DNA of 64,000 nucleotides from a virus: positions 82,605 to 146,604 of IMG/VR virus record IMGVR_UViG_3300017917_002108; one strand, given 5' to 3'. Shown here in pieces: positions 171 to 13,567 of the stretch. Under the pieces are notes generated by a model, which had not been told where the DNA came from, did no database searches, and was given only the letters and a program-made list of their open reading frames with translations. Both the position numbers and the translations under genes were made by a program. The stretch's first letter is position 1. Each line of letters starts with the position of its first letter.

Positions 171-538
171 TGATTAATAACATTAGTAGTTCTAGCCAGC
201 ATCTCTATGCCGCAGGAGGTAGTTCAATGCCCTATGTGTCAGTGAATCATAATAATCCTTCATCAGGCATGTTACGTCTCAATGGTTCCGATATGGAAGT
301 GTTTGACGGCAATACATGGATGAAAATTTATGCCAGTTCTGCCAACGTCGGCCTAAATAGTGATGCGGAACAGGCTGTTTCTTGGGCCATCAAACGTATG
401 AAACAAGAAAAAGAGTGGTATGAGTTGGCTACAACTAATGAAGCAGTTCGTATAGCATTAGATCAGTTAGAACAGGCAAAGACAAGATTAGAACTCACAA
501 CAATATTGGCAAAAGAACATGAACAGACAACCAGTTAA
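170..538 (+). CDS. hypothetical protein
   Basis: 122-aa ORF coupled to both neighbours; helical C-terminus. Confidence 0.7.
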   Translation: MINNISSSSQHLYAAGGSSMPYVSVNHNNPSSGMLRLNGSDMEVFDGNTWMKIYASSANVGLNSDAEQAVSWAIKRMKQEKEWYELATTNEAVRIALDQLEQAKTRLELTTILAKEHEQTTS

Positions 539-2060
539 TTTAACACCTTTACAGAAAGACTATGCCGTTTATCTACCTGCGATAAGTTGTTTCTTTTCTA
601 CCTATATCAGTAAACAGAGATTTGATAAATTTGTACCGGACGATAGGATTCCTCAGGGATTTGATCGTGGTATCGAAGGTATGAATTTTCTAAATCCTGA
701 ACAAGGGTATTTTACCTACAAGTATGGTCTGTATTCTGCGGGTCATGCACAATTAGATCTTGAAAAAACAATAATTCAAGATGCAATGATCCAAGATAGA
801 GATCGTAATAATACGGTAATCGTTGGCGATTCAGGTGGTTATCAAATTGGTAAAGGCGTTCTTAAATTTGATTGGCACAACTTCGAAGGCACAAGCGCCA
901 ATGCTACTAGAGATAAGATCCTCAATTGGCTCGAGCTGACCGCAGATTGGAGTATGTTGCTGGACGTCCCTACTTGGGCTAGTGATCACATACATAGTCC
1001 AAAAACCGGATTGAAAAGTTTTGAAGATTGTCTAAATAAGACTCTACACAATAATGACTACTTTATTCGTAATAGACTAGGACAGACTAAGTTTCTCAAT
1101 GTCTTACAAGGCAGTGATTGGGAAACTGCACAAACTTGGTACGAAGCAGTAAAACATCTACCAACTGAAGGTTGGGCCATGGGTGGTAAGAACATGTGTG
1201 ACATGGAAGTCGCACTCAAAAGACTTATCATCCTTCGTGATGACAAACTGTTAGATGATAGAAATTGGATGCACTTCTTAGGAACAGCTCAATTAGATTG
1301 GAGTTGTTATCTAACCCTGATTCAAAGACAGATTAGGAAACATGTTAATGAAAACTTTACCATTTCTTTTGACTGCGCATCACCCTTCATTGCAACCGCA
1401 CACGGACTTGTCTACACCAACGCCCAACACACTAACAAACGCTGGTCAGTCATCATGGACAAAGCCCCAGACAACAAAGCCCTTAGCCAGGCTTTTAATG
1501 TCCCCTTTCCGTTCGAATCAGAAATCGGACGTAGATTGTCAATCGGAGACATTTGCTGGTATAAACCGGGCATGTTGAATAAGGTTGGCAAAGAAGGTAA
1601 GACATCGTGGGATAGTTTTGGTTATGCGCTAATGATGGCACATAATACATACTGCCATATTGTTGCTGTACAACGTGCTAATCAATTGATGGATATCGAA
1701 ACAACAAAGATCAGTCCTAACTGGCGCCAATGGAAGAATCTCAAAGACATGGACAAAAGCGATGAATATTCCGAATGGGTTCCTCGCAATATTCTATACT
1801 TCCATAATTTTGTAGAAGAATTATTCAAGAGCGAAACTCCTATGCAGATGATTGAAGATGCTAGACCCATGTTGAATAAAATGATGGGCATGCGCCTACG
1901 TGGTGGTAACGCTAATAACACTTTTAACAAACATTTTGAAAGTGAAGAAATCGTACTAGATAAGTCAGTGTCACAGGTATCGGCCATGCCAGTACTAGAT
2001 GAAGATAAATTGGATGAGCTTGCTCATGAGTTTTTAGAACAGGAGGCTAATAATGTATGA
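519..2060 (+). CDS. dpdA: 7-deazaguanine DNA transglycosylase (TGT/queuine tRNA-ribosyltransferase-like, DpdA family)
   Basis: TGT-like motifs DSGGYQ, LDVP, VLQG, HFLG, SFD; clustered with folE, queE and a queD-like gene. Confidence 0.8.
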   Translation: MNRQPVNLTPLQKDYAVYLPAISCFFSTYISKQRFDKFVPDDRIPQGFDRGIEGMNFLNPEQGYFTYKYGLYSAGHAQLDLEKTIIQDAMIQDRDRNNTVIVGDSGGYQIGKGVLKFDWHNFEGTSANATRDKILNWLELTADWSMLLDVPTWASDHIHSPKTGLKSFEDCLNKTLHNNDYFIRNRLGQTKFLNVLQGSDWETAQTWYEAVKHLPTEGWAMGGKNMCDMEVALKRLIILRDDKLLDDRNWMHFLGTAQLDWSCYLTLIQRQIRKHVNENFTISFDCASPFIATAHGLVYTNAQHTNKRWSVIMDKAPDNKALSQAFNVPFPFESEIGRRLSIGDICWYKPGMLNKVGKEGKTSWDSFGYALMMAHNTYCHIVAVQRANQLMDIETTKISPNWRQWKNLKDMDKSDEYSEWVPRNILYFHNFVEELFKSETPMQMIEDARPMLNKMMGMRLRGGNANNTFNKHFESEEIVLDKSVSQVSAMPVLDEDKLDELAHEFLEQEANNV

Positions 2061-2262
2061 AAATCGAATCAAGCATTTACAAGAATCACATCGACTTCTT
2101 GACAATCAAATTGAAACATTGATGAAAAATGGACTCTATGAAGATCTAAAACTAGAAGAATTGAAGAAACAAAGGTTGCTTTTCAAGGACGAAATTGCTA
2201 GACTTACTAGACTGCAATGGGAACATGATCACGAAACCGTAGATTATGACGAAGAAAGATAA
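2053..2262 (+). CDS. small coiled-coil protein, DUF465/YdcH-like
   Basis: H..LD..I ... LKKQRL..KDEI pattern; AGGAGG RBS upstream. Confidence 0.5.
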   Translation: MYENRIKHLQESHRLLDNQIETLMKNGLYEDLKLEELKKQRLLFKDEIARLTRLQWEHDHETVDYDEER

Positions 2263-2455
2263 TATGATTTTACTTAGAAAAGATATAACACAGATTCAAA
2301 ATATCCTAGATAAATTTCCCAACATATCTAGTTTTGAAATCAATCAAGACAATAGCAGTGGCATTGGCTCAGTAGTCACCATGACATTCGATCATCAGAT
2401 AGAAGATATTCAAGGATCTTTTACTGTAGAAATTTCAGGCATAGAAAGTTGGTAA
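2246..2455 (+). CDS. hypothetical protein
   Basis: 69-aa ORF in operon. Confidence 0.65.
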   Translation: MTKKDNMILLRKDITQIQNILDKFPNISSFEINQDNSSGIGSVVTMTFDHQIEDIQGSFTVEISGIESW

Positions 2456-2865
2456 TCATGTATACAGAAGAACAATACGAAGAATTTCAAAATCGTATGC
2501 ACGAACGTTTTCCTAAAATGTTTGCGGGAAAATATGGCGGCTTTGCCTGTGCACCAGGTTGGTGGCCTATGCTAGAAAATCTTTGCGAAGTTATACAATC
2601 TCATATTGATCATAAAAAGGGCGAATGCTCTCAGGTTATCGTAGAACAAATCAAAGAAAAGTTTGGCACACTAAGATTTTATGTCAGCGGCGGTGACGAA
2701 TATACCAACGGTGCTATTTCTCTAGCAGAAAGCCTAAGCGGACATATGTGTGAGGAATGCGGTGCTCCTGGTAAGCGTGTCAGCGGAGGCTGGATTAAAA
2801 CACTGTGCGAATTTCATATAGCCGAAAAAGAAGCACTTAAGGCTAATACTGTTAAGGAAGATTAA
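2449..2865 (+). CDS. hypothetical phage protein with C-terminal CxxC...CxxH zinc ribbon (start possibly ATG 2458)
   Basis: QIKEKFGTLRFY motif, CEECG...TLCEFH. Confidence 0.7.
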   Translation: MVIMYTEEQYEEFQNRMHERFPKMFAGKYGGFACAPGWWPMLENLCEVIQSHIDHKKGECSQVIVEQIKEKFGTLRFYVSGGDEYTNGAISLAESLSGHMCEECGAPGKRVSGGWIKTLCEFHIAEKEALKANTVKED

Positions 2866-3422
2866 TGAAAAGAGATTACTCGTCCGGAGTATCTGACAAT
2901 ATCACCTTCTTTACAGGTGTTGAAATTGAACGGACTCCTGCATATCAAATGAAAACTCTATTTGTTGTAGGAGTTCATGATCCGTACGACATCCTAGAAA
3001 TAGTAACAGAAAGTAGATCATATTTAGACGAGTCTAAGCATATTCGTCATATCTATTTTGGTGCCAACCAAAGTTTTAAGACCAGCGGTGTAAACGATGT
3101 CGAAACTTGGCGTTCGTGGGAAAATATGATTTATGTATGTCTAGATTCTAAATATGATCTTTGGTGTACTCTAGATTTTGATGTATCCGAAACGGAGGGA
3201 TTGCTAGAAAGCGGTCTTACCGAAAAGCGTAGATTTATTCCGCAAATTAGTGTAAAATTACCTTATATTAATCAACTAGGCTATAACGCTACACTGAAGA
3301 TAGACGACAAAGATTTTTGTGCAACTAATCCTGGGGTATGGTGCCATAACCTACAGGATCTAATGGGTAGAGATAAGTTTACCGATTGGGATCAATATGG
3401 CAAGGACGAGATAATCAAATGA
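2865..3422 (+). CDS. hypothetical protein within deazaguanine cluster
   Basis: 185-aa ORF, TAATG coupling, AAGGA RBS; motifs G.E.E.T...KTLFVVG and HIYFGANQSF. Confidence 0.75.
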   Translation: MKRDYSSGVSDNITFFTGVEIERTPAYQMKTLFVVGVHDPYDILEIVTESRSYLDESKHIRHIYFGANQSFKTSGVNDVETWRSWENMIYVCLDSKYDLWCTLDFDVSETEGLLESGLTEKRRFIPQISVKLPYINQLGYNATLKIDDKDFCATNPGVWCHNLQDLMGRDKFTDWDQYGKDEIIK

Positions 3423-3772
3423 GTGGTTATGGACAAGCGATAGGTTATACTAATCAGGCAAAAGTGTCTGCGATTAGACCTGCTCGTAAAGTGAGGAAAC
3501 AAAAAGTGAAACTTACATTGAAACAACGATTTCGCAATTGGTTAAATGACACTGAAGAGGCCGATGTTCCTCAATTAGTAGAGTCAGATAGATTGTCTAG
3601 TGAAGGTATGCGTCTGCAGGTTCATAGAGCCAATGGCGGTTATGTTATAGAAACTCGTCACTATGACCATCAAAAAGATCGACACTATAATAATATCCAT
3701 ATCATCACAGACAGCGACGATCTAGGAAATAAATTAGGTCAAATCATAATGATGGAGGCATTGAAGCGATGA
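3419..3772 (+). CDS. hypothetical protein
   Basis: Start revised to ATG 3419 (ATGA overlap with upstream stop). Confidence 0.7.
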   Translation: MSGYGQAIGYTNQAKVSAIRPARKVRKQKVKLTLKQRFRNWLNDTEEADVPQLVESDRLSSEGMRLQVHRANGGYVIETRHYDHQKDRHYNNIHIITDSDDLGNKLGQIIMMEALKR

Positions 3773-3972
3773 AAGAATTTACAGTAAAAGAAAATCAGGG
3801 TTTTAGATTACGTGTAAAGAGTTGGAAGTGTCTCAGTCCTTCTAATCTAAATAGCATCGAATTTATAAATGAATCTCTAAACGAAGAGGGAGAAGTAACA
3901 ACTGCATCAACATATAATTTCTTTATGGATGACATAGAAATCAAAACTCTGTGCGAAGGAATGCTTAAGTGA
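3769..3972 (+). CDS. hypothetical protein
   Basis: ATGA overlap, GGAGG RBS. Confidence 0.65.
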   Translation: MKEFTVKENQGFRLRVKSWKCLSPSNLNSIEFINESLNEEGEVTTASTYNFFMDDIEIKTLCEGMLK

Positions 3973-4364
3973 TTATCAGACAAGATGTACGCCCACATAA
4001 AATGATTTGGGTGACCTTTCGAAAAGAAGGTATCCACAAATATCCGGCAGCCGCAACAGATCCTAATCTAGCAACAGGAGATGAATATGATGTTTCGTTT
4101 TTGGCTAATCCTCATCGCCATATTTTTCACTTTAGGGTTTGGCTTAGTGTCACCCACAATGATAGAGATGTGGAATTTATACAATTCAAGCGATGGCTCG
4201 AAAAACTGTATTCTAGCAACGAAGGTGTACTGTCGCTAGATTATAAAAGTTGTGAGATGATGAGCGACGATTTATATGCTCAGATTCACGCAAAGTATCC
4301 AGATCGTGAGGTTTGGATTGAGGTCTCCGAAGACGGAGAAAATGGTTCGTTTATCAAATACTAA
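3969..4364 (+). CDS. QueD-like T-fold protein (6-pyruvoyl tetrahydropterin synthase family), DpdL-type LxxxHRHxF variant
   Basis: EGIH, LANPHRHIF, EFIQFK, SCEM, EVSEDGENG; lacks the catalytic Cys of CxxxHGH. Confidence 0.75.
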   Translation: MIIRQDVRPHKMIWVTFRKEGIHKYPAAATDPNLATGDEYDVSFLANPHRHIFHFRVWLSVTHNDRDVEFIQFKRWLEKLYSSNEGVLSLDYKSCEMMSDDLYAQIHAKYPDREVWIEVSEDGENGSFIKY

Positions 4365-4377
4365 TAAGGAAATAAAA

Positions 4378-4632
4378 ATGGCTCGTAACTACAAGGACAT
4401 CGATTATTTTGCAAGTCGTCCTGATGTTGTGAAAGTCTGGGATGATCTAGACGCCTATCTCGACTATTGTCGATTTGAACTCTGTGAGTTCAACCCTGCA
4501 GATCTTTATCGTAAGGATTCTGCTAATTACCAATCTTACCTAGCAAGTAAGCGACCACGTAGGCCATATCAAGGTAACAAGCCTCGCTGGGATAACAACG
4601 GAAGACGCAATGGTCAAAGTTTTTCTCGTTGA
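4378..4632 (+). CDS. hypothetical protein with Arg-rich C-terminal tail
   Basis: Start revised to ATG 4378 after AAGGA RBS. Confidence 0.7.
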   Translation: MARNYKDIDYFASRPDVVKVWDDLDAYLDYCRFELCEFNPADLYRKDSANYQSYLASKRPRRPYQGNKPRWDNNGRRNGQSFSR

Positions 4633-5710
4633 TCTAGAAGCTGTTGAAACAAGGTACACAGGCGAGTGGAAAAACCACTTGCCTGCCCTGTTAAGAAAGA
4701 GAGGACACGATGTTCAAATTATCTCTGGTCCTACGGACATTCCTAGTGCCACTACTCCTGGCGCCTTTCTTAATTTTGGCGGGACTAATATCTATAAGTC
4801 TAGCCAAGTTGAGCAGATGGGCCGTTTATTTTGTGACGGAGCCATTCATCCCGGCGATCACTTTATTTTTACTGATGCTTGGCATCCTGGTATCATAAAT
4901 CTAAAGTACATGAGTGAATTACTTGGCATTCCTGTCAAGATTCACGCACTATGGCATGCCGGTAGTTATGATCCCCAAGACTTCTTAGGACGACTCGTTG
5001 GCAACAAGCCTTGGGTGAGACATGCTGAGAAATCTTTCTTTTCAGCTATCGACTATAATTATTTTGCCACAAATTTTCATATCGAACTCTTTGTGAGAAA
5101 TTTACTCAACGACGGAACCTGTGAAAATCCATATCTCAACGAGGATCTAGAAGAAATCATCGACGGAGGGTGGCCAAATATTGTAAGAAGTGGATGGCCG
5201 ATGGAATATATGGCAGATGCATTAGCCATGTATAAAAATATGCCGAAGCGAAATCTAATACTTTTTCCGCATAGGCTGGCTCCTGAAAAACAATTACCGA
5301 TATTTCAAGATCTAAAAGAGCATCTTCCTCAATATGAATTCAAAATCTGTCAAGAATATCCTTTGACAAAAAATGAATATCATAATATGTTAGGAGAAGC
5401 TAAATTAGTGTTCTCAGCTAATCTACAGGAAACACTAGGTATCAGTTGGTATGAAGGTGCTCTAGTAGATGCTATCCCAATGGTTCCGAACAGACTCAGC
5501 TATAAAGAAATGGCTTTGGACACATTTGTTTATCCCAGCGAATGGACTGAATCTTTCGAAGCATATACCGTATACAGGAAAGAAATCTGTCATAAGATAA
5601 TCCAGTATATGGAAAATTATGAAAAATTTTTACCAAGCCTAAATAAACAGGTAGATATATTAACTAAAAATTTCTTTAGTTGCGATAATCTATTAGAGAT
5701 GTTAAAATAA
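4610..5710 (+). CDS. GT-B fold (GT4-like) glycosyltransferase
   Basis: FPHRLAPEKQ and QETLGISWYEG (ExxxxxxxE, GT4 signature), YxEM; sits between the queD-like gene and folE. Confidence 0.75.
   Translation: MVKVFLVDLEAVETRYTGEWKNHLPALLRKRGHDVQIISGPTDIPSATTPGAFLNFGGTNIYKSSQVEQMGRLFCDGAIHPGDHFIFTDAWHPGIINLKYMSELLGIPVKIHALWHAGSYDPQDFLGRLVGNKPWVRHAEKSFFSAIDYNYFATNFHIELFVRNLLNDGTCENPYLNEDLEEIIDGGWPNIVRSGWPMEYMADALAMYKNMPKRNLILFPHRLAPEKQLPIFQDLKEHLPQYEFKICQEYPLTKNEYHNMLGEAKLVFSANLQETLGISWYEGALVDAIPMVPNRLSYKEMALDTFVYPSEWTESFEAYTVYRKEICHKIIQYMENYEKFLPSLNKQVDILTKNFFSCDNLLEMLK
5680..5708 (+). promoter_or_regulatory. sigma70-type promoter upstream of folE
   Basis: TTGCGA(5680-5685)-17 bp-TAAAAT(5703-5708) with extended -10 TG. 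Confidence 0.55.
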
Positions 5711-5745
5711 TATGTCATCCACGACTATAACTCGGAGAATAACAA

Positions 5746-6579
5746 TTGACAAAATTCATACCAGATCCTGTGCTTAACACAGAGATTAACAGAGAATTTA
5801 AAAAAGATGAATACGAGCCGCTAGGCAAACCGGTATATGTAAAAAAAGAAACTGCTCTAGATGCTATGGCAGGTGATGGTGGATATGAAGAAGCATATCT
5901 CGGTGACCATTTGCGTTTTAAAATGAAACGTGAAGGTAAGCGTTTTTGGGCCGGTGACAACATCAGTGACTTTTTACGCGAAGGTGATAAAGAGCGTCTA
6001 ATCGACGAAGCAACAGAGGCATTTGAACTAGTGCTTGATCGTTTACTGATTGATCGAGAAAACGATCCCAACAGCAAAGGTACAGCACGTAGATTGGCTA
6101 AGATGTATTTTAATGAAATCATGTCAGGAAGATATGATTCTCTACCGGACGCAACTGCGTTCCCTAATGATACCGAGGAAAGATATGAAGGCATGTTGGT
6201 TGTTCGTAGTGAGTTGCGTAGTATGTGCTCTCATCATCACCAGCCCGTGGTTGGTGTTGCTTATATTGGCATTATTGCCGCTAGTAAACTTATCGGCCTA
6301 TCTAAGTACACACGTATCGCACAGTGGTGTGCAAGACGTGGTACTCTCCAGGAGGAGCTTTGTAATGATATTGCTAGGGAGATCGAACGTGCCACAGGAG
6401 CCAAAGACCTAGGAGTCTATGTTCAGGCCACACATGGTTGTTGCGAGAATAGAGGTATTATGGCACATAGTAGTCTAACACAAACTACTGTGTTAAAAGG
6501 CGCCTTCAAAGAAGATGCAGGTACAAAGAAAGAATTCTTTGATAATATTAAAATGCAACAGGAGTTTGCCCCAAGATGA
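5746..6579 (+). CDS. folE: GTP cyclohydrolase I
   Basis: SMCSHHHQP, IGLSKYTR, LQEEL, HGCCENRG; TTG start after GGAGA RBS; N-terminal extension. Confidence 0.95.
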   Translation: MTKFIPDPVLNTEINREFKKDEYEPLGKPVYVKKETALDAMAGDGGYEEAYLGDHLRFKMKREGKRFWAGDNISDFLREGDKERLIDEATEAFELVLDRLLIDRENDPNSKGTARRLAKMYFNEIMSGRYDSLPDATAFPNDTEERYEGMLVVRSELRSMCSHHHQPVVGVAYIGIIAASKLIGLSKYTRIAQWCARRGTLQEELCNDIAREIERATGAKDLGVYVQATHGCCENRGIMAHSSLTQTTVLKGAFKEDAGTKKEFFDNIKMQQEFAPR

Positions 6580-6779
6580 GAAAAGAAATGATCGGTGTTT
6601 TGAAACAACATTTTGAAGCACATATTTTAAAACACAAAATGAATGTAGATATTATGCTAGGCAACCCTAGAGCTATTCCAGAACATACAGATCTTATGGA
6701 TGCTATAGAAAAAGAAGTTGCACAGATTGCCGAGTACATGGATAAACTAGAAGTAATGGAAAAGTACTTTAAGGATTAA
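6576..6779 (+). CDS. hypothetical helical protein
   Basis: 67-aa ORF, ATGA overlap. Confidence 0.7.
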   Translation: MRKEMIGVLKQHFEAHILKHKMNVDIMLGNPRAIPEHTDLMDAIEKEVAQIAEYMDKLEVMEKYFKD

Positions 6780-6781
6780 TC

Positions 6782-7000
6782 ATGGCCACTGCAAAAGACC
6801 TAATGGATAATCTTATATATAGAGCTAAAAACATTCAAGAATTTATTGTAGAACGAGAGTGGGAGTTGATTCCCAGCGGAGTGGTAAGATATAATATTCA
6901 ACATACCCAAGGCGAACTAGCTAGAATTTTCGTTCATGCAATGACACAAGATGAAGCAGAAAGATTAGTCGATGATTGGTTCGAAGAGGCAGAAGAATAA
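6782..7000 (+). CDS. hypothetical protein
   Basis: 72-aa ORF, AAGGA RBS. Confidence 0.7.
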   Translation: MATAKDLMDNLIYRAKNIQEFIVEREWELIPSGVVRYNIQHTQGELARIFVHAMTQDEAERLVDDWFEEAEE

Positions 7001-7425
7001 TGCGATTCTTTTCTCCTCTACGCGATGACCTTATGGTCCAACAACAAGTAGATGATGCATGGCAACATTTTGTAGGTGTCATTATGCTCAATCAAACAGG
7101 AAGGAAGGCAGTAAAGACTACACTTCCAGAATTCCTATATTGGTTTCCTACTCCTCATTCTTTATTACAGGCCAACGAAGAATTCGTAAAAAGCATAATC
7201 GCTCCATTAGGTATGGTCAATATAAGATATAAGAGATTAAGAGGCATGTCCGAAGATTATCTATTATGGAATGGTGATAACGCTACCAAATTATACGGTA
7301 TCGGAAAATATGGCAGTGACAGCTATGAAATATTTTTCAAAGAAAATTACAGCGTAGAGCCAACAGATAAAGAACTTAAGCGATATCTTAACGAGGAGAT
7401 CTTCAATGTTGTTAAAGTTACTTGA
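7000..7425 (+). CDS. HhH-GPD DNA glycosylase, MBD4-like
   Basis: W...VGVIMLNQT, IAPLG, HhH LYGIGKYGSDSYEIF, PTDKEL (catalytic Asp position as in MBD4); start revised to ATG 7000. Confidence 0.8.
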   Translation: MRFFSPLRDDLMVQQQVDDAWQHFVGVIMLNQTGRKAVKTTLPEFLYWFPTPHSLLQANEEFVKSIIAPLGMVNIRYKRLRGMSEDYLLWNGDNATKLYGIGKYGSDSYEIFFKENYSVEPTDKELKRYLNEEIFNVVKVT

Positions 7426-7876
7426 AAGATTAGGTCGAAAACGAATCATATTTGATCGTGTGCATAACGAACCGTATCTAGAAAGATATTATCTCTTTTT
7501 AAAAGAGCGTGAACGTTTTCCCTTTAATGTATTCTTGCATAAGTTCTTAAAGGGAGATCCAGACGATGTCCATGATCATCCATGGCCATACGCAACATTG
7601 ATATTGAAAGGTGGGTATTATGAATGGGTTCCACAGTTTGATGATCAAGGCCTTAAATCTTGTGAGGTGCGAAAGTGGCGCGGTCCTGGTCATTTTCGTA
7701 TATGTAGTCCTAACTCGTATCACCGCATTGAGCTTAAACCTGGCGTAACTGCATGGACATTGTTTATGCCTGGTCCTCACAAACGTGATTGGGGATTTCT
7801 TGTAAACAACAAATGGATACAACACGAACAGTATCTAAAGGAGAGATATGAACAAGCTCGTAATCGACCAGCGTGA
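7406..7876 (+). CDS. cupin-fold metal-binding protein
   Basis: HDHPW...ILKGGYYE...HRIEL...WTLF (HxH-E-H cupin ligands). Confidence 0.65.
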   Translation: MLLKLLERLGRKRIIFDRVHNEPYLERYYLFLKERERFPFNVFLHKFLKGDPDDVHDHPWPYATLILKGGYYEWVPQFDDQGLKSCEVRKWRGPGHFRICSPNSYHRIELKPGVTAWTLFMPGPHKRDWGFLVNNKWIQHEQYLKERYEQARNRPA

Positions 7877-8432
7877 ACTTCAAGGACTGGTTGCAAAAAT
7901 ATGTAGAGACATAACACAAAGTAATTGGAAACCAGATTATATCGTAGGAATCACTCGTGGTGGGCTGATTCCTGCTGTCATGATCAGTCAATATTTGAAT
8001 ATTCCAATGTGGACTCTTAATGTCAGTCTCAGAGACAACAACGAAGGCGAAAGTAACCTATGGATGGCCGAAGATGCTCTCGGACCTAATAGTAGAGATA
8101 GATTCATAGACGATCCAGACGATGTTGCAGGTGTCTTGAAGGCTGCAAGCGAGTTATTAGAAGCTGGCACATTCAAAGAAATATTATTAGTAGACGATAT
8201 CAACGACACAGGCTCCACATTTAATTGGATTATAAACGATTGGAAATCTAGTTGCTTTCCCGAAGATCCAGCTTGGGATGAAGTTTGGAATCAAAATGTT
8301 AGATTCGCTGTTTTAATAGATAATCTTTCCAGTGACTGTGAATACAGTATGGATTATGTGGGTAAAGAAATTAATAAATCGGAAAACAATGTGTGGGTAG
8401 ATTTTCCATGGGAAGAATGGTGGACAAAATGA
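7848..8432 (+). CDS. type I phosphoribosyltransferase (xanthine/guanine PRT-like)
   Basis: IVGITRGGLIPA, PRPP loop LLVDDINDTGST, C-terminal WVDFPWE. Confidence 0.85.
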   Translation: MNKLVIDQRELQGLVAKICRDITQSNWKPDYIVGITRGGLIPAVMISQYLNIPMWTLNVSLRDNNEGESNLWMAEDALGPNSRDRFIDDPDDVAGVLKAASELLEAGTFKEILLVDDINDTGSTFNWIINDWKSSCFPEDPAWDEVWNQNVRFAVLIDNLSSDCEYSMDYVGKEINKSENNVWVDFPWEEWWTK

Positions 8433-8812
8433 TTAAAGTAGTACAAGAACAACCAAATGATATCGATGAATCTAAGGCCCCTTGGACTGAACTTGTTGAA
8501 GAAGATTATCATGTGAAAGTATTTCAAGACAAATATCCAGTCACTGAAGGTCATCTATTATTTGTGCCTAAATATAACACAGTACATGTTCTAATGGATG
8601 CTATGGAAGATGCTGTAAGATATGGATTACAAAAAGTAGAAACCAAAGAGTGGGATGGGTTTAATCTAGGTATCAACATAGGACAAGCAGCAGGTCAAAC
8701 TGTTGGTTGGCCGCATGTTCATCTAATTCCAAGACGCCAAGGCGATATGGAAGATCCCACAGGTGGTGTCAGACATGTAATACCAGAAAGAGGTAATTAT
8801 AGAAAGTGGTAA
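8429..8812 (+). CDS. HIT family hydrolase
   Basis: DKYPVTEGHLLFVPK, AGQTV, HVHLIPR; start revised to ATG 8429. Confidence 0.9.
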   Translation: MIKVVQEQPNDIDESKAPWTELVEEDYHVKVFQDKYPVTEGHLLFVPKYNTVHVLMDAMEDAVRYGLQKVETKEWDGFNLGINIGQAAGQTVGWPHVHLIPRRQGDMEDPTGGVRHVIPERGNYRKW

Positions 8813-9645
8813 TGAACAAAAGAACTTTATTCATCGGTGATAGTCATACTATGGGGTATAAATCTGTTCCGGATAAAAATGGGCTGGGCAGTTTTACTCA
8901 ATGGAATGATAATAACTATGCAGAAATTTATTCAGAATACAATAAAAAACCTGTAGTCATCTATGCTTTATCGGGAGCAACAAATAGATTGTATACCGAT
9001 TGGCTAAAGTCTATGTTTGAAAAGTACGATGACATTGACGATGTGTTTATATGCCTTTCATCGTTTAATAGATTTATCATTGCCATTGATGATTTAACTA
9101 ACGAAGAAACTCTGCCCATTGATTGGTTTCAATACAAACTTGATAATTCAACAGATACTGTACATAGGTATATGGATGGCATAGTAAGAGACAAAACTAT
9201 GCAACTGTTGAATAAATCAACTTTTGCAGATTATGATAATTTTCCAGGAATAGAATTCAGTGGAGAAGATGGATTAATCACCCCCGATATAAGAAAACAT
9301 ACCTATATGCAGGTTAAATTGTTTTTTGAACTAAACACATATCTCGAAAAGAGAGAATTTTTGAATAGTGTCTATACCTGGGATAATATTTGCAAAGATC
9401 ACGGTGCTCAGCTCCATTTGTTCAATTTTACTAATAGATTAAAATTTCCCAGCGATTTAAGCTATTACGGGAAACTCAAAAATACTAAAGTAGCTACTAA
9501 GACTGTAGAAACCTTTTTATCAGGCCTAGGAATAAATCATAAAGATTATTTAATAGAAGATAAAGAACATTACAATACCGAATATCATGAGTTAGTGGCA
9601 AAAAATTATATACCATGGTTAAAAACATTAAAAAATTACTCATAA
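8812..9645 (+). CDS. SGNH/GDSL-like protein
   Basis: FIGDSHT block I, A.SG..N block II, C-terminal DxxHY; start revised to ATG 8812. Confidence 0.55.
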   Translation: MNKRTLFIGDSHTMGYKSVPDKNGLGSFTQWNDNNYAEIYSEYNKKPVVIYALSGATNRLYTDWLKSMFEKYDDIDDVFICLSSFNRFIIAIDDLTNEETLPIDWFQYKLDNSTDTVHRYMDGIVRDKTMQLLNKSTFADYDNFPGIEFSGEDGLITPDIRKHTYMQVKLFFELNTYLEKREFLNSVYTWDNICKDHGAQLHLFNFTNRLKFPSDLSYYGKLKNTKVATKTVETFLSGLGINHKDYLIEDKEHYNTEYHELVAKNYIPWLKTLKNYS

Positions 9646-10208
9646 CTGGAGATAGTTTTGCTGCTGTTTGGCCGGATTCAACTAATGGTTGGGTTAATCT
9701 ATTGGCGAGAGAATATGAAGTTTGCAATCTGGCTAAAGCAGGAGTTGGCGAATATAAGATCCTAAAACAAATAGAAAATATCAACATAAACAATTTCGAT
9801 TGTGTGATCGTAAGTCATACCAGCCCTAGTAGAATTCATACTAAAAATCATCCTTTGCATACCACAGGTTTTCATAACGAATGTGATCTAATAGTCACAG
9901 ATTTAATGGCACATTGGAATCCCTTGAATAAAAATTTATCAGGGGCCAAATCATTCTTCAAATACCACTATGACGAACAATATCAGTTAGATATCTATAA
10001 ATTGTTGAGGACCAAAATAAATGATCTAATAAACATACCCTATATTAGTGTCTCCCATGTAGAAATAGCTAATCAATTACGAATTGAATCTCGGCATATT
10101 GATTTCAGTGACCTCTGGAAAACAGAAAGAGGTAATGTGAATCACTACACTGACGCAGGGAATAAAATTGTTTACAATCAAATTAAAAATATAATAGAAA
10201 CCATATGA
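9615..10208 (+). CDS. SGNH/GDSL-like protein
   Basis: ITGDSFA, NLAKAGVG, C-terminal NHY...GN. Confidence 0.6.
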   Translation: MVKNIKKLLITGDSFAAVWPDSTNGWVNLLAREYEVCNLAKAGVGEYKILKQIENININNFDCVIVSHTSPSRIHTKNHPLHTTGFHNECDLIVTDLMAHWNPLNKNLSGAKSFFKYHYDEQYQLDIYKLLRTKINDLINIPYISVSHVEIANQLRIESRHIDFSDLWKTERGNVNHYTDAGNKIVYNQIKNIIETI

Positions 10209-10405
10209 ACGATATACATGTAAATTGGAATCCTAAAAAAATCGATCATCTAGGATGGAACGAAATATGTTGCAGAATAACAGAACAATTTGGTCTCCCC
10301 GGAGATCGGTATGTGACTGAGGTCAGCGAAAATTATATGAAATTTAAATTTAGAGATGACCAAGATAGTCTGATGTGTAGGATGCTGTTAAGCGAATACC
10401 TATGA
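10205..10405 (+). CDS. hypothetical protein
   Basis: 66-aa ORF, ATGA overlap, FGLPGDRY motif. Confidence 0.65.
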   Translation: MNDIHVNWNPKKIDHLGWNEICCRITEQFGLPGDRYVTEVSENYMKFKFRDDQDSLMCRMLLSEYL

Positions 10406-10641
10406 TAAAATTTATTTTAGGATTCTTAGCTGCATGTTTGATTTGGGTTTGGGTATTGTCTAATGTTGATATACCCACATATAAAATCTATGACTGTGGT
10501 ATGGCAGAATGGCATCCTGATACACCTCCCGAAGTGAAAGAAGAGTGTAGGAAAAGACGTTATCAAGAATGGATCAATCGACATGAAAGACAAATTAAAA
10601 CACGCATACATGCAGACAGCATTTATTTTTTCAAGACTTAG
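10402..10641 (+). CDS. small membrane-anchored hypothetical protein
   Basis: N-terminal hydrophobic helix, YDC...EECR. Confidence 0.6.
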   Translation: MIKFILGFLAACLIWVWVLSNVDIPTYKIYDCGMAEWHPDTPPEVKEECRKRRYQEWINRHERQIKTRIHADSIYFFKT

Positions 10642-11110
10642 TCATGCTCGTAGATTACACGTTGGCGCTATCATTGTAAAGGATGATAGGATTATTTCTA
10701 TTGGGTATAACGGCATGCCAGCAGGATGGGACAACGATTGTGAAAATAAAGATTATATGTCTAGTGATGCTGGTGGTTGGCTTGATCCTGATGAGATAGA
10801 AGAACGCTGGCCTTATCAAGAACAGCAACTTCCAAAAGATTCTAATATATGGAGACGATATGCTCTCAAAACTAAACCGGAGGTATTACATGCTGAAACG
10901 AATGCGATCGCTAAACTTGCTAGAAGCACTGAGTCTGGGCTCAATGCTACTATGTTTATTACTCATAGTCCTTGCCTTGATTGTGCAAAGCTCATTTATC
11001 AAAGTGGCATTAATGCTGTCTATTATGCTCATGCTTATCGTAACGAAGATGGAATATCGTTCCTCAAAGCATCGGGAGTAGATGTTGAAAAATTGGACGT
11101 TAACAGTTAA
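10583..11110 (+). CDS. dCMP deaminase (CMP/dCMP deaminase family)
   Basis: VGAIIVKD, SIGYNG, HAETNAI, SPCLDC. Confidence 0.92.
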   Translation: MKDKLKHAYMQTAFIFSRLSHARRLHVGAIIVKDDRIISIGYNGMPAGWDNDCENKDYMSSDAGGWLDPDEIEERWPYQEQQLPKDSNIWRRYALKTKPEVLHAETNAIAKLARSTESGLNATMFITHSPCLDCAKLIYQSGINAVYYAHAYRNEDGISFLKASGVDVEKLDVNS

Positions 11111-11273
11111 CGACGACGGAGTAATTGTTCTTCCAGATGATCTGTTAACAGACCTAGGATGGACAGAAGGGGATACTCTTAAATGGATTGACAATCATAA
11201 TGGTTCGTGGAGTATTGTCAAGGAAGAAGACTTGACAAACTTTATTAAAAAAGGTATAATAAGTAATGAGTAA
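11082..11273 (+). CDS. AbrB/MazE/SpoVT-like DNA-binding protein
   Basis: V...G.IVLPDDL...LGW.EGD.L pattern. Confidence 0.65.
   Translation: MLKNWTLTVNDDGVIVLPDDLLTDLGWTEGDTLKWIDNHNGSWSIVKEEDLTNFIKKGIISNE
11232..11260 (+). promoter_or_regulatory. perfect sigma70 consensus promoter for queE
   Basis: TTGACA(11232-11237)-17 bp-TATAAT(11255-11260), ATG 5 nt downstream. Confidence 0.8.
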
Positions 11274-12120
11274 AATAAAAATCGCAGAGCTGTTTTACAG
11301 CATCCAAGGTGAAGGACGCTATATGGGGGTGCCCAGTGTGTTCCTTAGAACCTTTGGCTGTAACTTTAAATGTGCTGGGTTTGGAATGCCTAGGGGTGAA
11401 CTAAGCTCAGAAGTAGAAGCCATTGCTGCTAGAGTATCGGAGTTTAAGAAGTATGAAGAACTTCCATTGGTTTCTACTGGTTGTGATAGCTATGCTAGCT
11501 GGGATCCTCGCTTTAAGGATCTTAGTCCAATGCTTACTATTGACGCCATCGCAGAAAGAATCTGCGAAATTTTACCATTCAACGGATGGCGAGAAGAGCA
11601 CTTGGTTATTACAGGAGGAGAACCGTTGCTTGGGTGGCAACGTGCTTACCCAGAATTGCTGAGACATCCTAAGATGCAAGGCCTTAAAGAAATCACATTT
11701 GAAACAAATGGTACTCAACCTCTAACAGAAGAATTTAAAGATTACTTATTGGAATGGTTGATGCCTCATCCAGAATATCAAAAAGAAATCACATTCAGCG
11801 TCAGTGCCAAACTAAGTTGTAGTGGCGAGGAAAGGCATGAAGCCATACGTCCAGAAGTAGTATGCGGATATCAAGACTGGGGACATACTTATCTTAAATT
11901 TGTTGTAGCCACAGAAGAAGACGTAGAAGAAGCTATTGAAACAGCAGATATCTATCGTGCAGAAGGATTTACTGGTTCAATTTACTTGATGCCTGTGGGC
12001 GGTGTTGAAAGTGTGTACACACTAAATAATCGTCGCGTAGCAGAACTAGCGATGAAGAACGGACTAAGATATAGCGACAGATTGCAGGTGCCGCTGTTTA
12101 AAAATGAATGGGGAACTTGA
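11266..12120 (+). CDS. queE: 7-carboxy-7-deazaguanine synthase (radical SAM)
   Basis: ELFYSIQGEG...GVPSVFLRTFGCN, CDS, ITGGEPL, ETNGT, LKFVV, RLQV. Confidence 0.9.
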   Translation: MSKIKIAELFYSIQGEGRYMGVPSVFLRTFGCNFKCAGFGMPRGELSSEVEAIAARVSEFKKYEELPLVSTGCDSYASWDPRFKDLSPMLTIDAIAERICEILPFNGWREEHLVITGGEPLLGWQRAYPELLRHPKMQGLKEITFETNGTQPLTEEFKDYLLEWLMPHPEYQKEITFSVSAKLSCSGEERHEAIRPEVVCGYQDWGHTYLKFVVATEEDVEEAIETADIYRAEGFTGSIYLMPVGGVESVYTLNNRRVAELAMKNGLRYSDRLQVPLFKNEWGT

Positions 12121-12584
12121 TGTTTACAAAAATAATTAAAAAAATTACAGGTATTGATAAACTTGAAGCCAGTATTGCTGAGATGCAGGCCAAAGAACTA
12201 GAAGTGGTTGAGAAATTAGCTGCCAATCAACGAGAAGTAGAAAGAGCAAGACAGGCCGTAGAAGCAGCCAAAGAAGAAGAAGAATTAGCCAAACTTAATC
12301 CAAAAGAACGTGCTACCAGAAAAAAAGAACCGTGGGTAGCTGTGCTTAACACACATGTTAATAAAGACAATATCAGGAATGGATTCTTTGAGCTTGACTG
12401 GAATGAGTATTTCGTGCTAAAATTAAAGCAAGAAGGATACGGTTTTGACGGGGACAAAGACGAAGAAATCGTAGATCGGTGGTTCAGAGAGCTCTGTGCT
12501 AATGTGGTAGTTGACGAAGGTGGCAACTTACCTGTTAATACAGGGGTTATTGATATTCAAAGTGTGAAAAAGAATAACCTATGA
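12120..12584 (+). CDS. hypothetical protein with N-terminal coiled coil
   Basis: Start revised to ATG 12120; GFFELDWN..F motif. Confidence 0.7.
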   Translation: MFTKIIKKITGIDKLEASIAEMQAKELEVVEKLAANQREVERARQAVEAAKEEEELAKLNPKERATRKKEPWVAVLNTHVNKDNIRNGFFELDWNEYFVLKLKQEGYGFDGDKDEEIVDRWFRELCANVVVDEGGNLPVNTGVIDIQSVKKNNL

Positions 12585-13567
12585 CATATATTTTAGTTGA
12601 TACTGCTAACACATTCTTTCGTGCTAGGCATGTTATTAACGGCGATGCCGATATCAAGCTGGGTATGGCATTTCATATTACTCTAAACTCTATTCGTAAA
12701 GCATGGCAGCAATTCCATGGCAGTCATGTTATTTTCTGTTTAGAGGGAAGATCTTGGCGCAAGGACTACTACGAACCATATAAACGCAATCGTGCAGAAG
12801 CCCGTGCTGCACATACAGAAAAAGAACAAGAAGAAGATCGTGTATTCTGGGAAGCTTTTGATACATTCAAAGAGTTTATCACAGACAAGACTAATTGTAC
12901 AGTTCTACGAAATGATCAGCTAGAAGCAGATGATCTCATAGCAGGTTGGATACAAAGTCATCCGGACGATAATCACGTTATCATTTCGACAGACACAGAT
13001 TTCGTGCAACTTATCGCACCTAATGTAAAACAGTATAACGGTGTAATGGAATATACAATTACACACGAAGGAATCTTTGATGACAAAGGTAAACCGGTCA
13101 TTGACAAAAAAACCAAAGAACCAAAAGCAGCCCCAAACCCGGAATGGCTCTTATTCGAAAAGTGTATGCGTGGTGATACCAGTGATAATGTCTTCTCAGC
13201 GTATCCGGGTGTGCGTACTAAAGGCACAAGCAAAAAAGTGGGTCTTGCTGAAGCGTTCGAAGATCGTGGCACCAAAGGATTTGCGTGGAACAATCTCATG
13301 CTTCAGAGATGGACTGACCACGAAGGCAAAGAACATAGGGTCCTAGAAGATTATGAACGCAATCGTCGACTAATCGATCTTAGCTATCAGCCAGACCACA
13401 TAAGAGAAATAATCTCTTCAACTATTTCTACAGCAATTACATCAAACAAAAATATCAGCCAAGTGGGAATCAGATTAATTAAATTCTGTAATCTCTATGA
13501 TTTGAAAAAGATTTCAGAACAGGCACAATCATATGCCGAACCATTAAATGCGAGGTATACAATATGA
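12581..13567 (+). CDS. rnh: RNase H / 5'-3' exonuclease (T4 RNase H / FEN family)
   Basis: LVDT.N, SWRK..Y..YK.NR, LEADD, ISTDTDF.QL, GDTSDNV. Confidence 0.9.
   Translation: MTYILVDTANTFFRARHVINGDADIKLGMAFHITLNSIRKAWQQFHGSHVIFCLEGRSWRKDYYEPYKRNRAEARAAHTEKEQEEDRVFWEAFDTFKEFITDKTNCTVLRNDQLEADDLIAGWIQSHPDDNHVIISTDTDFVQLIAPNVKQYNGVMEYTITHEGIFDDKGKPVIDKKTKEPKAAPNPEWLLFEKCMRGDTSDNVFSAYPGVRTKGTSKKVGLAEAFEDRGTKGFAWNNLMLQRWTDHEGKEHRVLEDYERNRRLIDLSYQPDHIREIISSTISTAITSNKNISQVGIRLIKFCNLYDLKKISEQAQSYAEPLNARYTI

What the first reader, a model, noticed from the sequence alone, without database searches (positions are those of the whole stretch)
519..12120. QueC-less 7-deazaguanine DNA-modification cluster with an embedded glycosyltransferase: possible novel (glycosylated) deazaguanine base
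Seen: dpdA-like, QueD-like, folE and queE genes, with a GT4-like glycosyltransferase directly before folE. No QueC, QueF, ArcS or Gat-QueC is recognisable in the window. Known: FolE, QueD and QueE make 7-carboxy-7-deazaguanine (CDG); QueC is needed for preQ0 and its derivatives; DpdA exchanges the base into DNA. Inference: the inserted base is CDG or decarboxylated DG, and the GT-B enzyme (same fold as T4 DNA glucosyltransferases) may hypermodify it. I am not aware of a characterised sugar-bearing deazaguanine in phage DNA.
Basis: partly seen in the sequence, partly recalled or inferred. Interest (0 to 1): 0.8.

Follow-up and report, generated by a model that had tools for sequence, protein, structure and literature searches.

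The report
Sugar transferase inside phage deazaguanine genes
A giant uncultured water phage carries the known gene set for swapping guanine in its DNA for 7-deazaguanine, and a real sugar-transferring enzyme travels with that gene set's base-swapping enzyme in many unrelated phages and bacteria, which predicts a sugar-bearing purine in DNA that I found described in no paper.

Summary
The window carries:
- a TGT-fold DpdA-like transglycosylase (519-2060);
- a QueD-like protein (3969-4364) that is DpdL, the predicted CDG decarboxylase of Cellulophaga phage phiST;
- a GT4-fold glycosyltransferase (4610-5710) directly before folE (5746-6579);
- QueE (11266-12120).

There is no QueC or QueF in the window.

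Corrections:
- A true QueD and a divergent QueC-family gene lie elsewhere on the 146.6-kb record. The QueC-like gene is absent from every relative tested.
- dCDG and dDG are already known phage bases (Cui et al. 2023).

New evidence on the GT:
- It is not a passenger. Diverged homologues (29-50% identity) sit beside DpdL and/or this DpdA clade in PA5oct, ACP17, Phosso, five metagenomic lineages and 27 of 31 bacterial or MAG loci.
- Twelve of those 31 loci lack DpdL, so DpdA is the constant partner.
- phiST, where plain dDG was measured, has no such GT.
- PA5oct DNA carries an unidentified G modification.
- ACP17 DpdA plus DpdL without the GT failed in E. coli.

A sugar-bearing deazaguanine is plausible but unproven, about 0.4. 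This scan has met the same theme on at least 135 other genomes. I class it as a new variant of a known kind.

The parts
519..2060 (+). DpdA-like DNA guanine transglycosylase (TGT fold), 513 aa
   Evidence: AF2 plus Foldseek: the top 50 PDB hits are all TGT, E 3e-9. Invariant D104-S-G-G-x-Q109, Q197-G198, H252-x-L-G255 and D285 in FDC. hhalign to the ACP17 DpdA gives 96.6% probability. Distant homologues carry Pfam TGT.
2865..3422 (+). Conserved unknown protein (185 aa) that travels with the module
   Evidence: Found in 71 of 80 related loci. A homologue lies between folE and dpdA in ACP17. Also present in MAG loci L115, L117, L118, L120 and L121. No Pfam or PDB match.
3969..4364 (+). DpdL (QueD paralogue of the T-fold family; predicted CDG decarboxylase)
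   Evidence: LxxxHRHxF motif. 33% identity, E 2e-9, to phiST CGPG_00067, which is DpdL. 54-67% identity to the PA5oct, ACP17 and Phosso copies.
4378..4632 (+). Small conserved protein between DpdL and the GT. The listed ORF is 4276-4632; the likely start is the ATG at 4378.
   Evidence: Present in 79 of 80 related loci. Found at the same position in L088 and several MAG loci. Function unknown.
4610..5710 (+). GT4-like GT-B glycosyltransferase, 366 aa
   Evidence: pLDDT 93.4. Foldseek top hits BshA, GT4 BA1558, MshA and glycogen synthase, E 3e-11. E274-x7-E282, R222, K227 and H116 are invariant or nearly so in 52 diverse homologues. Homologues give weak Pfam Glycos_transf_1 hits.
5746..6579 (+). 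GTP cyclohydrolase I (FolE) with an N-terminal extension of about 90 aa
   Evidence: Pfam GTP_cyclohydroI 131.8 bits. NCBIfam FolE models E 2e-38.
6976..7425 (+). Short HhH-GPD-like protein (149 aa); accessory
   Evidence: Pfam HhH-GPD 35.5 bits, covering only part of the profile. Present in 41 of 80 related loci.
7406..7876 (+). Cupin-like protein (cysteine-dioxygenase-like PHROG); a possible oxygenase
   Evidence: phrog_4786, E 2.6e-38. Found in 73 of 80 related loci at 82% identity. Not found in the PA5oct, ACP17 or Phosso clusters.
7848..8432 (+). Purine-type phosphoribosyltransferase
   Evidence: Pfam Pribosyltran 55.9 bits. Best NCBIfam hits are XPRT and HGPRT. A homologue lies in the PA5oct cluster.
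8393..8812 (+). HIT-family nucleotide hydrolase or transferase
   Evidence: Pfam HIT 40.8 bits. Present in 56 of 80 related loci.
11266..12120 (+). QueE-like radical SAM enzyme (CDG synthase)
   Evidence: The five best NCBIfam hits are QueE models, E 1e-13 to 9e-11, all below their cut-offs. QGEG, C32, C36, C73-D74 and TGGEP are invariant against the PA5oct, ACP17 and Phosso QueE.

Best explanation
This is a DpdL-type 7-deazaguanine DNA-modification module of a jumbo T4-like phage.

Proposed pathway:
1. FolE (in the window), QueD (elsewhere on the record) and QueE (in the window) turn GTP into 7-carboxy-7-deazaguanine (CDG).
2. DpdL is predicted to decarboxylate CDG to 7-deazaguanine (DG).
3. 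The TGT-fold DpdA-like enzyme exchanges guanine in phage DNA for that base after replication.
4. The GT4-fold glycosyltransferase is an integral partner of this DpdA clade. It most likely uses an NDP-sugar to glycosylate the deazaguanine, either as a free base before insertion or in DNA after it. The position is unknown; N2, by analogy with huimycin, or the nucleophilic C7/C8 are candidates.
5. The purine PRTase may recycle the released guanine to GMP, and so to GTP for FolE.

Shown here: the folds, the motifs and the gene linkage. Inferred: every chemical step, DpdL's activity (unproven even in the literature) and above all the sugar transfer to the base.
For: Identity of the parts:
- TGT fold with intact catalytic motifs.
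- DpdL is homologous to phiST CGPG_00067 and carries its signature motif.
- FolE, QueE and QueD are recognisable.
- The GT has a confident GT4 fold, and its donor-site residues are conserved across 52 homologues of 27-51% identity.

Linkage of the GT to the module:
- The GT abuts DpdL in PA5oct, ACP17 and Phosso.
- The same holds in 8 of 9 diverse GT loci.
- All 17 GenBank phage records with a match covering at least 80% of the GT also have DpdL.
- GT-DpdL-DpdA trios occur in Magnetospirillum, Sulfotelmatobacter and Verrucomicrobia genomes.
- 27 of 31 genome or MAG loci have the DpdA-like gene beside the GT, and 12 of the 31 lack DpdL.
- In Shimia a YhhQ-like gene (queuosine-precursor transporter family) precedes the GT-DpdA pair.

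Literature:
- phiST, with measured dDG, has no GT.
- PA5oct DNA resists G-site restriction enzymes and the base is unidentified.
- A GT that glycosylates a free 7-deazapurine base exists: HuiG of huimycin.
Against: - DG has no hydroxyl, so no obvious O-glycosylation site exists. The chemistry would be N- or C-glycosylation, which retaining GT4 enzymes rarely do.
- No mass spectrometry exists for any GT-bearing phage.
- DpdL occurs without the GT in RHph_I1_18, Bakedbeans, Ahp1 and phiST. The GT occurs without DpdL in 12 of the 31 genome/MAG loci, mostly alphaproteobacterial. The GT is therefore tied to DpdA rather than to DG.
- No sugar-nucleotide synthesis gene is recognisable in this cluster.
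- One GT homologue, P0203, lies on a 7-kb contig with no visible DpdA.
- A divergent QueC-family gene on this record could divert CDG to ADG or preQ0.
Confidence: 0.45

Rival explanations
1. The GT is a required helper of this DpdA clade rather than a base decorator. It may activate or stabilise DpdA, or modify DpdA or a transient intermediate. The final base would then be plain dDG, or preQ0-type in the DpdL-less bacterial pairs.
For: - DpdA, not DpdL, is the GT's constant neighbour.
- The genes overlap or abut, which suggests co-translation.
- ACP17 DpdA plus DpdL without the GT were inactive in E. coli.
- DG offers no hydroxyl acceptor.
Against: - The NDP-sugar site (EX7E, R222, K227) is invariant across the family. 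That argues for real glycosyl transfer, not scaffolding.
- phiST-type DpdA3 reaches 100% dDG with no GT.
- I know of no precedent for a GT acting as a cofactor of a TGT-family enzyme.
Confidence: 0.2
2. The phage makes ordinary phiST-like dDG. The GT acts on something else that merely shares the DNA-metabolism gene block, such as a glycosylated pyrimidine (5hmC, 5hmU or 5hoC), a protein, or a small molecule such as a pterin.
For: - GT4 enzymes have very varied acceptors, for example malate, inositol phosphate and ergothioneine.
- FolE plus PTPS-like plus GT recalls cyanobacterial pterin glycoside synthesis (my own knowledge, not tested here).
- Glycosylated cytosines are common in T4-like phages.
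Against: - No thymidylate-synthase-like hydroxymethylase or hydroxylase was found on this record, in two relatives that are 76-79% complete, or in ACP17.
- Adjacency to DpdA and DpdL survives gene-order changes across unrelated phages, and also holds in bacterial islands that lack folE and queE.
Confidence: 0.15
3. Nucleotide-level route. The PRTase converts the deazaguanine base to a nucleotide, HIT and other enzymes process it, and the polymerase incorporates it before or alongside DpdA action.
For: - A purine-type PRTase and a HIT protein are conserved in the lineage.
- A PRTase is also in the PA5oct cluster and on the P0203 contig together with a NUDIX gene.
Against: - The DpdA-like protein keeps all TGT catalytic motifs, and Cui et al. 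argue for post-replicative insertion in all known cases.
- The PRTase is absent from the ACP17, Phosso and bacterial loci.
- Guanine salvage explains the PRTase equally well.
Confidence: 0.08
4. In this particular phage the QueC-family gene is active, so the inserted base is a known QueC-dependent one (dADG, dPreQ0 or a derivative) rather than DG.
For: PP-loop SGGLDS and a C-x12-C-x2-C-x2-C zinc motif. Pfam QueC 30.1 bits against a cut-off of 22. PADLOC QueC matched over its full length.
Against: - The NCBIfam QueC equivalog scores 15.8 bits against a cut-off of 150.3, and phmmer finds no solved QueC.
- The gene sits 28 kb away, on the other strand, among structural genes.
- It is absent from PA5oct, ACP17 and Phosso. 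No copy turned up in six large relatives either: a protein search of five found none, and a Pfam QueC search of a sixth found none.
- DpdL at 84% identity across the lineage argues that DG is the conserved product.
Confidence: 0.1

Closest known systems
DpdL/DpdA3 dDG system of Cellulophaga phage phiST (Cui, Hutinet et al., NAR 2023, PMC10516641)
   Same: The set FolE, QueD, QueE, DpdL plus a divergent TGT-family transglycosylase. DpdL is homologous and carries the same LxxxHRHxF motif. No QueC within the cluster.
   Different: phiST has no GT homologue. Its short DpdA3 (259 aa) is not detectably similar to the window's 513-aa DpdA (hhalign probability 3.6%). The window adds the GT, a conserved 185-aa unknown, a cupin, a PRTase and a HIT protein.
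Gene clusters of Acidovorax phage ACP17, Pseudomonas phage PA5oct and Sinorhizobium phage Phosso (annotated mostly 'hypothetical')
   Same: The same DpdA clade, DpdL at 54-67% identity and the GT at 35-50% identity, with the GT abutting DpdL. ACP17 also shares the 185-aa unknown, and PA5oct shares the PRTase.
   Different: Gene order differs: DpdA-GT-DpdL in PA5oct and ACP17, against DpdL-x-GT-FolE here and in Phosso. These phages are cultured. PA5oct DNA is known to resist G-site restriction enzymes, but its base is unidentified (PMC12191111).
Huimycin and dapiramicin tailoring (HuiG glycosyltransferase, actinomycete secondary metabolism)
   Same: A glycosyltransferase uses UDP-GlcNAc to glycosylate a nitrogen of a free 7-deazapurine base derived from preQ0 (bioRxiv 10.64898/2026.04.15.718813).
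   Different: The product is a small-molecule antibiotic, not DNA. There is no DpdA. Sequence kinship with the phage GT was not tested.
T4 alpha- and beta-glucosyltransferases and other phage DNA glycosyltransferases
   Same: GT-B-fold enzymes that decorate a non-canonical base in phage DNA after replication.
   Different: They need a hydroxyl on a pyrimidine (5hmC, 5hmU or 5hoC) made by a thymidylate-synthase homologue, and none was found here. The window GT's nearest folds are GT4 enzymes acting on small molecules, not T4 GTs.
Bacterial Dpd system (DpdA, DpdB, DpdC plus restriction genes)
   Same: A TGT-family DpdA inserts a 7-deazaguanine into DNA. The bacterial GT-DpdL-DpdA islands sit beside a nuclease-like gene and an integrase.
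   Different: No DpdB or DpdC. PADLOC Dpd models do not match the window DpdA. The partner gene here is a GT.

Membership tests
DpdA (TGT-superfamily DNA guanine transglycosylase) | TGT-type TIM-barrel fold | tested here: met
   AF2 model with pLDDT 74.9, and above 90 in the core. All top-50 Foldseek PDB hits are TGT, E 3e-9, probability 1.0.
DpdA (TGT-superfamily DNA guanine transglycosylase) | Catalytic Asp in DSGG[FY]Q and nucleophile Asp in an FDC-like motif | tested here: met
   D104-S-G-G-Y-Q109 and D285 (FDC) are invariant in 38 sequences. The same motif is in all DpdA-like neighbours of the GT. Equating D285 with TGT Asp280 rests on motif resemblance.
DpdA (TGT-superfamily DNA guanine transglycosylase) | Direct sequence-profile match to TGT or DpdA models | tested here: not met
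   No Pfam TGT hit on the record at E<=1. No NCBIfam or PADLOC DpdA hit. A PDB profile search was empty. The only link is transitive: homologues of the L090 DpdA carry PF01702.
DpdA3 subfamily (as defined by phiST CGPG_00065) | Detectable homology to phiST DpdA3 | tested here: inconclusive
   hhalign of A3 against phiST DpdA3 gives probability 3.6%, but 96.6%, E 6e-10, against the ACP17 DpdA. Which subfamily Cui et al. assign to ACP17 could not be read, because no supplement is held.
DpdA (TGT-superfamily DNA guanine transglycosylase) | Base-exchange activity on DNA | not testable with these tools
   Needs expression and LC-MS.
DpdL (QueD paralogue, predicted CDG decarboxylase) | LxxxHRHxF in place of QueD's CxxxHGH | tested here: met
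   The protein reads L-A-N-P-H-R-H-I-F. The motif is defined in PMC10516641 and is present in all GT-linked copies.
DpdL (QueD paralogue, predicted CDG decarboxylase) | Homology to phiST CGPG_00067 | tested here: met
   tblastn 32.8% identity, E 2e-9, over 92% of the query. The hit coordinates are those of CGPG_00067.
DpdL (QueD paralogue, predicted CDG decarboxylase) | Genome encodes FolE, QueD, QueE and DpdA but no QueC | tested here: inconclusive
   FolE, QueD, QueE and DpdA are present. A divergent QueC-family gene is also on the record, though the relatives tested lack it.
GT4-like GT-B glycosyltransferase | Two-Rossmann GT-B fold closest to GT4 members | tested here: met
   pLDDT 93.4. 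Hits BshA, BA1558, MshA, PimB' and PglA at E 3e-11 to 1e-7, TM 0.6-0.66.
GT4-like GT-B glycosyltransferase | EX7E motif and basic residues of the NDP-sugar site | tested here: met
   E274-x7-E282, R222 and K227 are invariant or at least 90% conserved.
GT4-like GT-B glycosyltransferase | Pfam GT family hit above threshold | tested here: not met
   The window protein has no GT hit. The PA5oct and ACP17 homologues give Glycos_transf_1 at 19-21 bits, below the cut-off of 26.4.
QueE (CDG synthase) | Radical SAM Cys triad plus QueE-specific motifs, and an equivalog score | tested here: inconclusive
   QGEG, C32, C36, C73-D74 and TGGEP are invariant. All best NCBIfam hits are QueE models but score 42-51 bits against cut-offs of 200-300. 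A 36-residue insert splits the Cys motif.
QueC (preQ0 synthase): the gene outside the window | PP-loop SGGxDS, C-terminal 4-Cys zinc site and an equivalog score | tested here: inconclusive
   Both motifs are present. Pfam scores 30.1 bits, above 22. NCBIfam TIGR00364 scores 15.8 bits against 150.3. No solved QueC is hit.
T4-type hydroxymethyl-pyrimidine glucosylation | A thymidylate-synthase-like dCMP or dUMP hydroxymethylase or hydroxylase that supplies the acceptor | tested here: not met
   No PF00303 match in G000, G001 (76% complete), G002 (79% complete) or ACP17. PA5oct has one ordinary ThyA.

The most novel reading that the evidence does not exclude
The GT and this DpdA clade together form a two-enzyme system, found in phages and in bacterial islands, that installs a glycosylated 7-deazaguanine in DNA. 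The sugar would be an N- or C-glycoside on the deazapurine ring. This would be the first sugar-bearing purine in any genome. It would also explain the unidentified G modification of PA5oct-like therapeutic phages and the failed reconstitution of the ACP17 system.
Probability: 0.35. Interest if true: 0.9.

Novelty: new variant of a known kind. Interest (0 to 1): 0.72.

Why it matters
- All known glycosylated DNA bases are pyrimidines. A sugar on a deazapurine would be a new class of DNA hypermodification, with new enzymology: a GT4 enzyme making an N- or C-glycoside on a nucleobase.
- The family is very common. More than 8000 protein clusters matched the GT, 598 or more IMG/VR loci carry it, and it falls into 1107 clusters at 50% identity.
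- It occurs in cultured phages, including PA5oct-like Pseudomonas phages studied for therapy, whose DNA has an unidentified G modification that END nucleases sense.
- It also offers a concrete reason why the published ACP17 DpdA/DpdL reconstitution failed. The GT gene that lies between the two genes was left out.

Tried and rejected
- Megablast of the region against GenBank phages: no match.
- Pfam, NCBIfam, PHROG and PADLOC on the DpdA-like protein and the GT: nothing useful.
- phmmer and profile searches of the DpdA-like family against PDB sequences: only noise. The fold comparison was needed to place it.
- The ACP17 132-aa gene first taken for DpdL is not DpdL. It is the homologue of the window's 185-aa unknown, and the real DpdL follows the GT.
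- The 185-aa unknown and the cupin: the Atlas, Pfam and PDB gave no function.
- Overall charge of the GT, as a hint of DNA binding: acidic, like DpdA, so uninformative.
- Single-protein scans of IMG/VR with divergent GTs found only close relatives or nothing. Alignment A1 was too diverse to give patterns.
- The 150-aa ORF between dpdA and the GT in Pelagibacterium looks like a non-coding frame.
- Rejected: glycosylated hydroxymethyl- or hydroxy-pyrimidine as the GT's target, because no ThyA-like gene was found.
- Rejected: the QueC-like gene as a conserved part of the module.

Full report
**Where the window lies.** The window is the last 64 kb of a 146.6-kb IMG/VR virus record that CheckV rates 41% complete. 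T4-like genes surround the finding: RNase H/5'-3' exonuclease at 12581-13567 and, elsewhere on the record, a weak gp9/10-like baseplate match. Relatives reach 270-384 kb. The phage is therefore an uncultured jumbo T4-like phage from a very abundant aquatic lineage. More than 8000 protein clusters match its GT, and 598 or more IMG/VR loci carry it.

**Checking the observation.** The region 519-12120 is one + strand gene array.
- folE (5746-6579) is unambiguous: Pfam 131.8 bits.
- The radical SAM gene (11266-12120) hits only QueE models best, at E 1e-13 but below the equivalog cut-offs. It shares QGEG, the three Cys, TGGEP and other invariant positions with the annotated QueE of PA5oct, ACP17 and Phosso.
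- The 513-aa protein (519-2060) has no hit in any HMM library. It does carry the TGT motif DSGGYQ. I built an alignment with diverse relatives taken from the neighbourhoods of distant GT homologues. The resulting model (pLDDT 74.9) matches only tRNA-guanine transglycosylases among the 50 best PDB hits. D104, Q109, Q197-G198, H252-x-L-G255 and D285 (FDC, resembling the TGT nucleophile motif) are invariant. Some 46%-identical relatives of a family member carry Pfam TGT.
- The 131-aa 'QueD-like' protein (3969-4364) carries LxxxHRHxF. Cui et al. give this as the mark that separates DpdL from QueD. Its tblastn match in Cellulophaga phage phiST is exactly CGPG_00067, which is DpdL.
- The 366-aa protein (4610-5710) folds with pLDDT 93.4 into a GT-B enzyme. 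Its nearest solved folds are GT4 members: BshA, BA1558, MshA, glycogen synthase, PimB' and PglA. Its EX7E motif and the basic residues of the donor site are invariant in 52 homologues of 27-51% identity.

**Corrections to 'QueC-less'.**
- A genuine QueD lies at C1:29452-29928 (59.7 bits).
- A 197-aa QueC-family gene lies about 28 kb upstream of the window, on the other strand and among structural genes. It has SGGLDS and a four-Cys motif. It scores Pfam 30.1 bits against a cut-off of 22, and PADLOC QueC over its full length.
- That gene is far below the NCBIfam equivalog cut-off and hits no solved QueC.
- It is absent from PA5oct, ACP17 and Phosso. No copy turned up in six large relatives either: a protein search of five found none, and a Pfam QueC search of a sixth found none. 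One of the five gave only a faint Pfam QueC match (13.8 bits), to what looks like a different gene. Its only GenBank phage relative is an actinophage ExsB.
- I treat it as a sporadic accessory gene and as a caveat for this phage, not as part of the module. No QueF was found.

**Is the GT part of the system?** This is the core question, and the comparative evidence is strong.
- In GenBank phages the GT has matches covering at least 80% of its length only in the PA5oct group, Phosso, ACP17, Xanthomonas X1/BUDD and Synechococcus BUCT-ZZ01. All of these also have DpdL.
- In PA5oct the order is DpdA-GT-DpdL...PRTase-QueE. In ACP17 it is QueD-FolE-[185-aa unknown]-DpdA-GT-DpdL-QueE. In Phosso it is DpdL-GT-x-FolE...QueE, with DpdA elsewhere.
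- The neighbourhoods of five distant GT representatives (29-44% identity) again show DpdL touching the GT. In total this holds for 8 of 9 non-redundant loci.
- Gene order differs between lineages, but adjacency survives, often with overlapping stop and start codons.
- In bacterial genomes a GT-DpdL-DpdA trio occurs in Magnetospirillum (five loci), Sulfotelmatobacter, a Verrucomicrobia MAG and a Rhodospirillaceae MAG. In M. aberrantis it sits in an island with a CoiA-like nuclease-domain protein, QueD and an integrase.
- A wider scan gave 31 loci. A DpdA-like gene lies beside the GT in 27 of them, and the other four are cut by contig ends.
- Twelve of the 31 have no DpdL: Pelagibacterium (three loci), Devosia, Ochrobactrum, a Rhizobiales isolate, Azospirillum, Shimia, Sulfitobacter, a Roseobacter isolate, a Rhizobiaceae MAG and one short MAG contig.
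- In Shimia a YhhQ-like membrane protein directly precedes the GT-DpdA pair. It belongs to the Vut_1 family, which I know as queuosine-precursor transporters. The score is 24.7 bits, just below the cut-off.
- The GT's constant partner is thus this DpdA clade, and DpdL is a frequent but optional third member. Conversely, DpdL occurs without the GT in RHph_I1_18, Bakedbeans, Ahp1 and phiST.

**What the literature adds.**
- phiST DNA has all G replaced by plain dDG, and phiST has no GT.
- Cui et al. expressed ACP17 and phiST dpdL with their dpdA in E. coli and saw no dDG. [quoted passage not shown] In ACP17 the GT gene lies between those two genes, and the paper never mentions a glycosyltransferase.
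[quoted passage not shown] END nucleases that sense hypermodified DNA target it.
- I found no paper that links a GT to DpdL or DpdA.
- A chemical precedent exists outside DNA. HuiG uses UDP-GlcNAc to glycosylate a nitrogen of a free preQ0-derived 7-deazapurine in huimycin biosynthesis.

**Mechanism.** Shown: the folds, the catalytic motifs and the linkage. Inferred:
1. GTP goes to CDG through FolE, QueD and QueE.
2. CDG goes to DG through DpdL. This activity is unproven even in the literature.
3. DpdA performs base exchange.
4. The GT transfers a sugar.

Because the GT also accompanies DpdA where DpdL is absent, its acceptor should be a feature common to deazaguanines, or the DNA or enzyme itself, rather than something specific to DG. 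Candidates are N2, as in huimycin (the position is from my own knowledge), or the nucleophilic C7/C8.

The lineage-specific cupin (7406-7876) could supply an oxidised acceptor, but it is absent from the PA5oct, ACP17 and Phosso clusters.

The purine PRTase may recycle guanine released by base exchange into GMP, and so into GTP for FolE. This is an inference. A nucleotide-level incorporation route is a weaker alternative.

**Rivals tested.** A pyrimidine acceptor is unlikely. No thymidylate-synthase-like gene is present on this record, in two relatives that are 76-79% complete, or in ACP17. The known glycosylated cytosines need one.

**Verdict.** The module is a DpdL-type deazaguanine system of a known kind, with an integral and undescribed glycosyltransferase partner, which makes it a new variant. 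Whether the DNA carries a sugar-bearing deazaguanine is open; I put it at about 0.35-0.45. It can be tested directly in cultured phages. Earlier follow-ups in this scan reached the same reading on other DNA: 188 notes in at least 135 genomes. I reached mine before reading them. One of those notes prompted the bacterial-genome search.

Noticed in passing
window 11266-12120: This QueE, like those of PA5oct and L088, has an insert of about 36 residues between the second and third Cys of the radical SAM motif (C-x3-C-x36-C). The ACP17, Phosso and L096 QueE keep the canonical C-x3-C-x2-C.
   Followed up: partly
L097:4328-8812 and L097:11511-13040: One metagenomic phage contig carries four TGT-like paralogues, all with DSGGLQ. 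Three lie in tandem before QueE-DpdL-GT and one lies after the GT.
   Followed up: no
L093:9212-10363 (Vibrio phage Bakedbeans gp176): Here DpdL is the C-terminal third of a 383-aa protein. The N-terminal part of about 260 aa has no Pfam match. There is no GT nearby.
   Followed up: partly
window 8806-9645 and 9615-10208: Two adjacent genes begin with GDS(H/F) blocks, like SGNH/GDSL hydrolases (by eye only, no HMM hit). They occur in only 11-14 of 80 related loci. They could be sugar or acyl tailoring enzymes.
   Followed up: no
window 6976-7425: A short HhH-GPD-like protein sits inside the cluster, in 41 of 80 relatives. It is of interest because END defence nucleases sense hypermodified DNA through an inactive EndoIII-like domain.
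   Followed up: no
L106:8330-9889 (Magnetospirillum aberrantis): A 519-aa protein with a CoiA-like nuclease domain lies directly upstream of the bacterial GT-DpdL-DpdA trio, with QueD and an integrase downstream. This may be a modification-plus-restriction island.
   Followed up: partly
L003:15416-15934 (PA5oct EST35_0320): A 172-aa fragment resembling NAD-dependent epimerases/dehydratases lies between DpdL and the PRTase in the PA5oct cluster. It could be a sugar-nucleotide tailoring enzyme.
   Followed up: no
G000:C1 about 54462-55520, - strand (L001:1498-2528): The QueC-family gene forms a two-gene minus-strand cassette with an unknown 153-aa gene, wedged between + strand structural genes (a Laminin_G_3 protein and a gp9/10-like protein).
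   Followed up: partly
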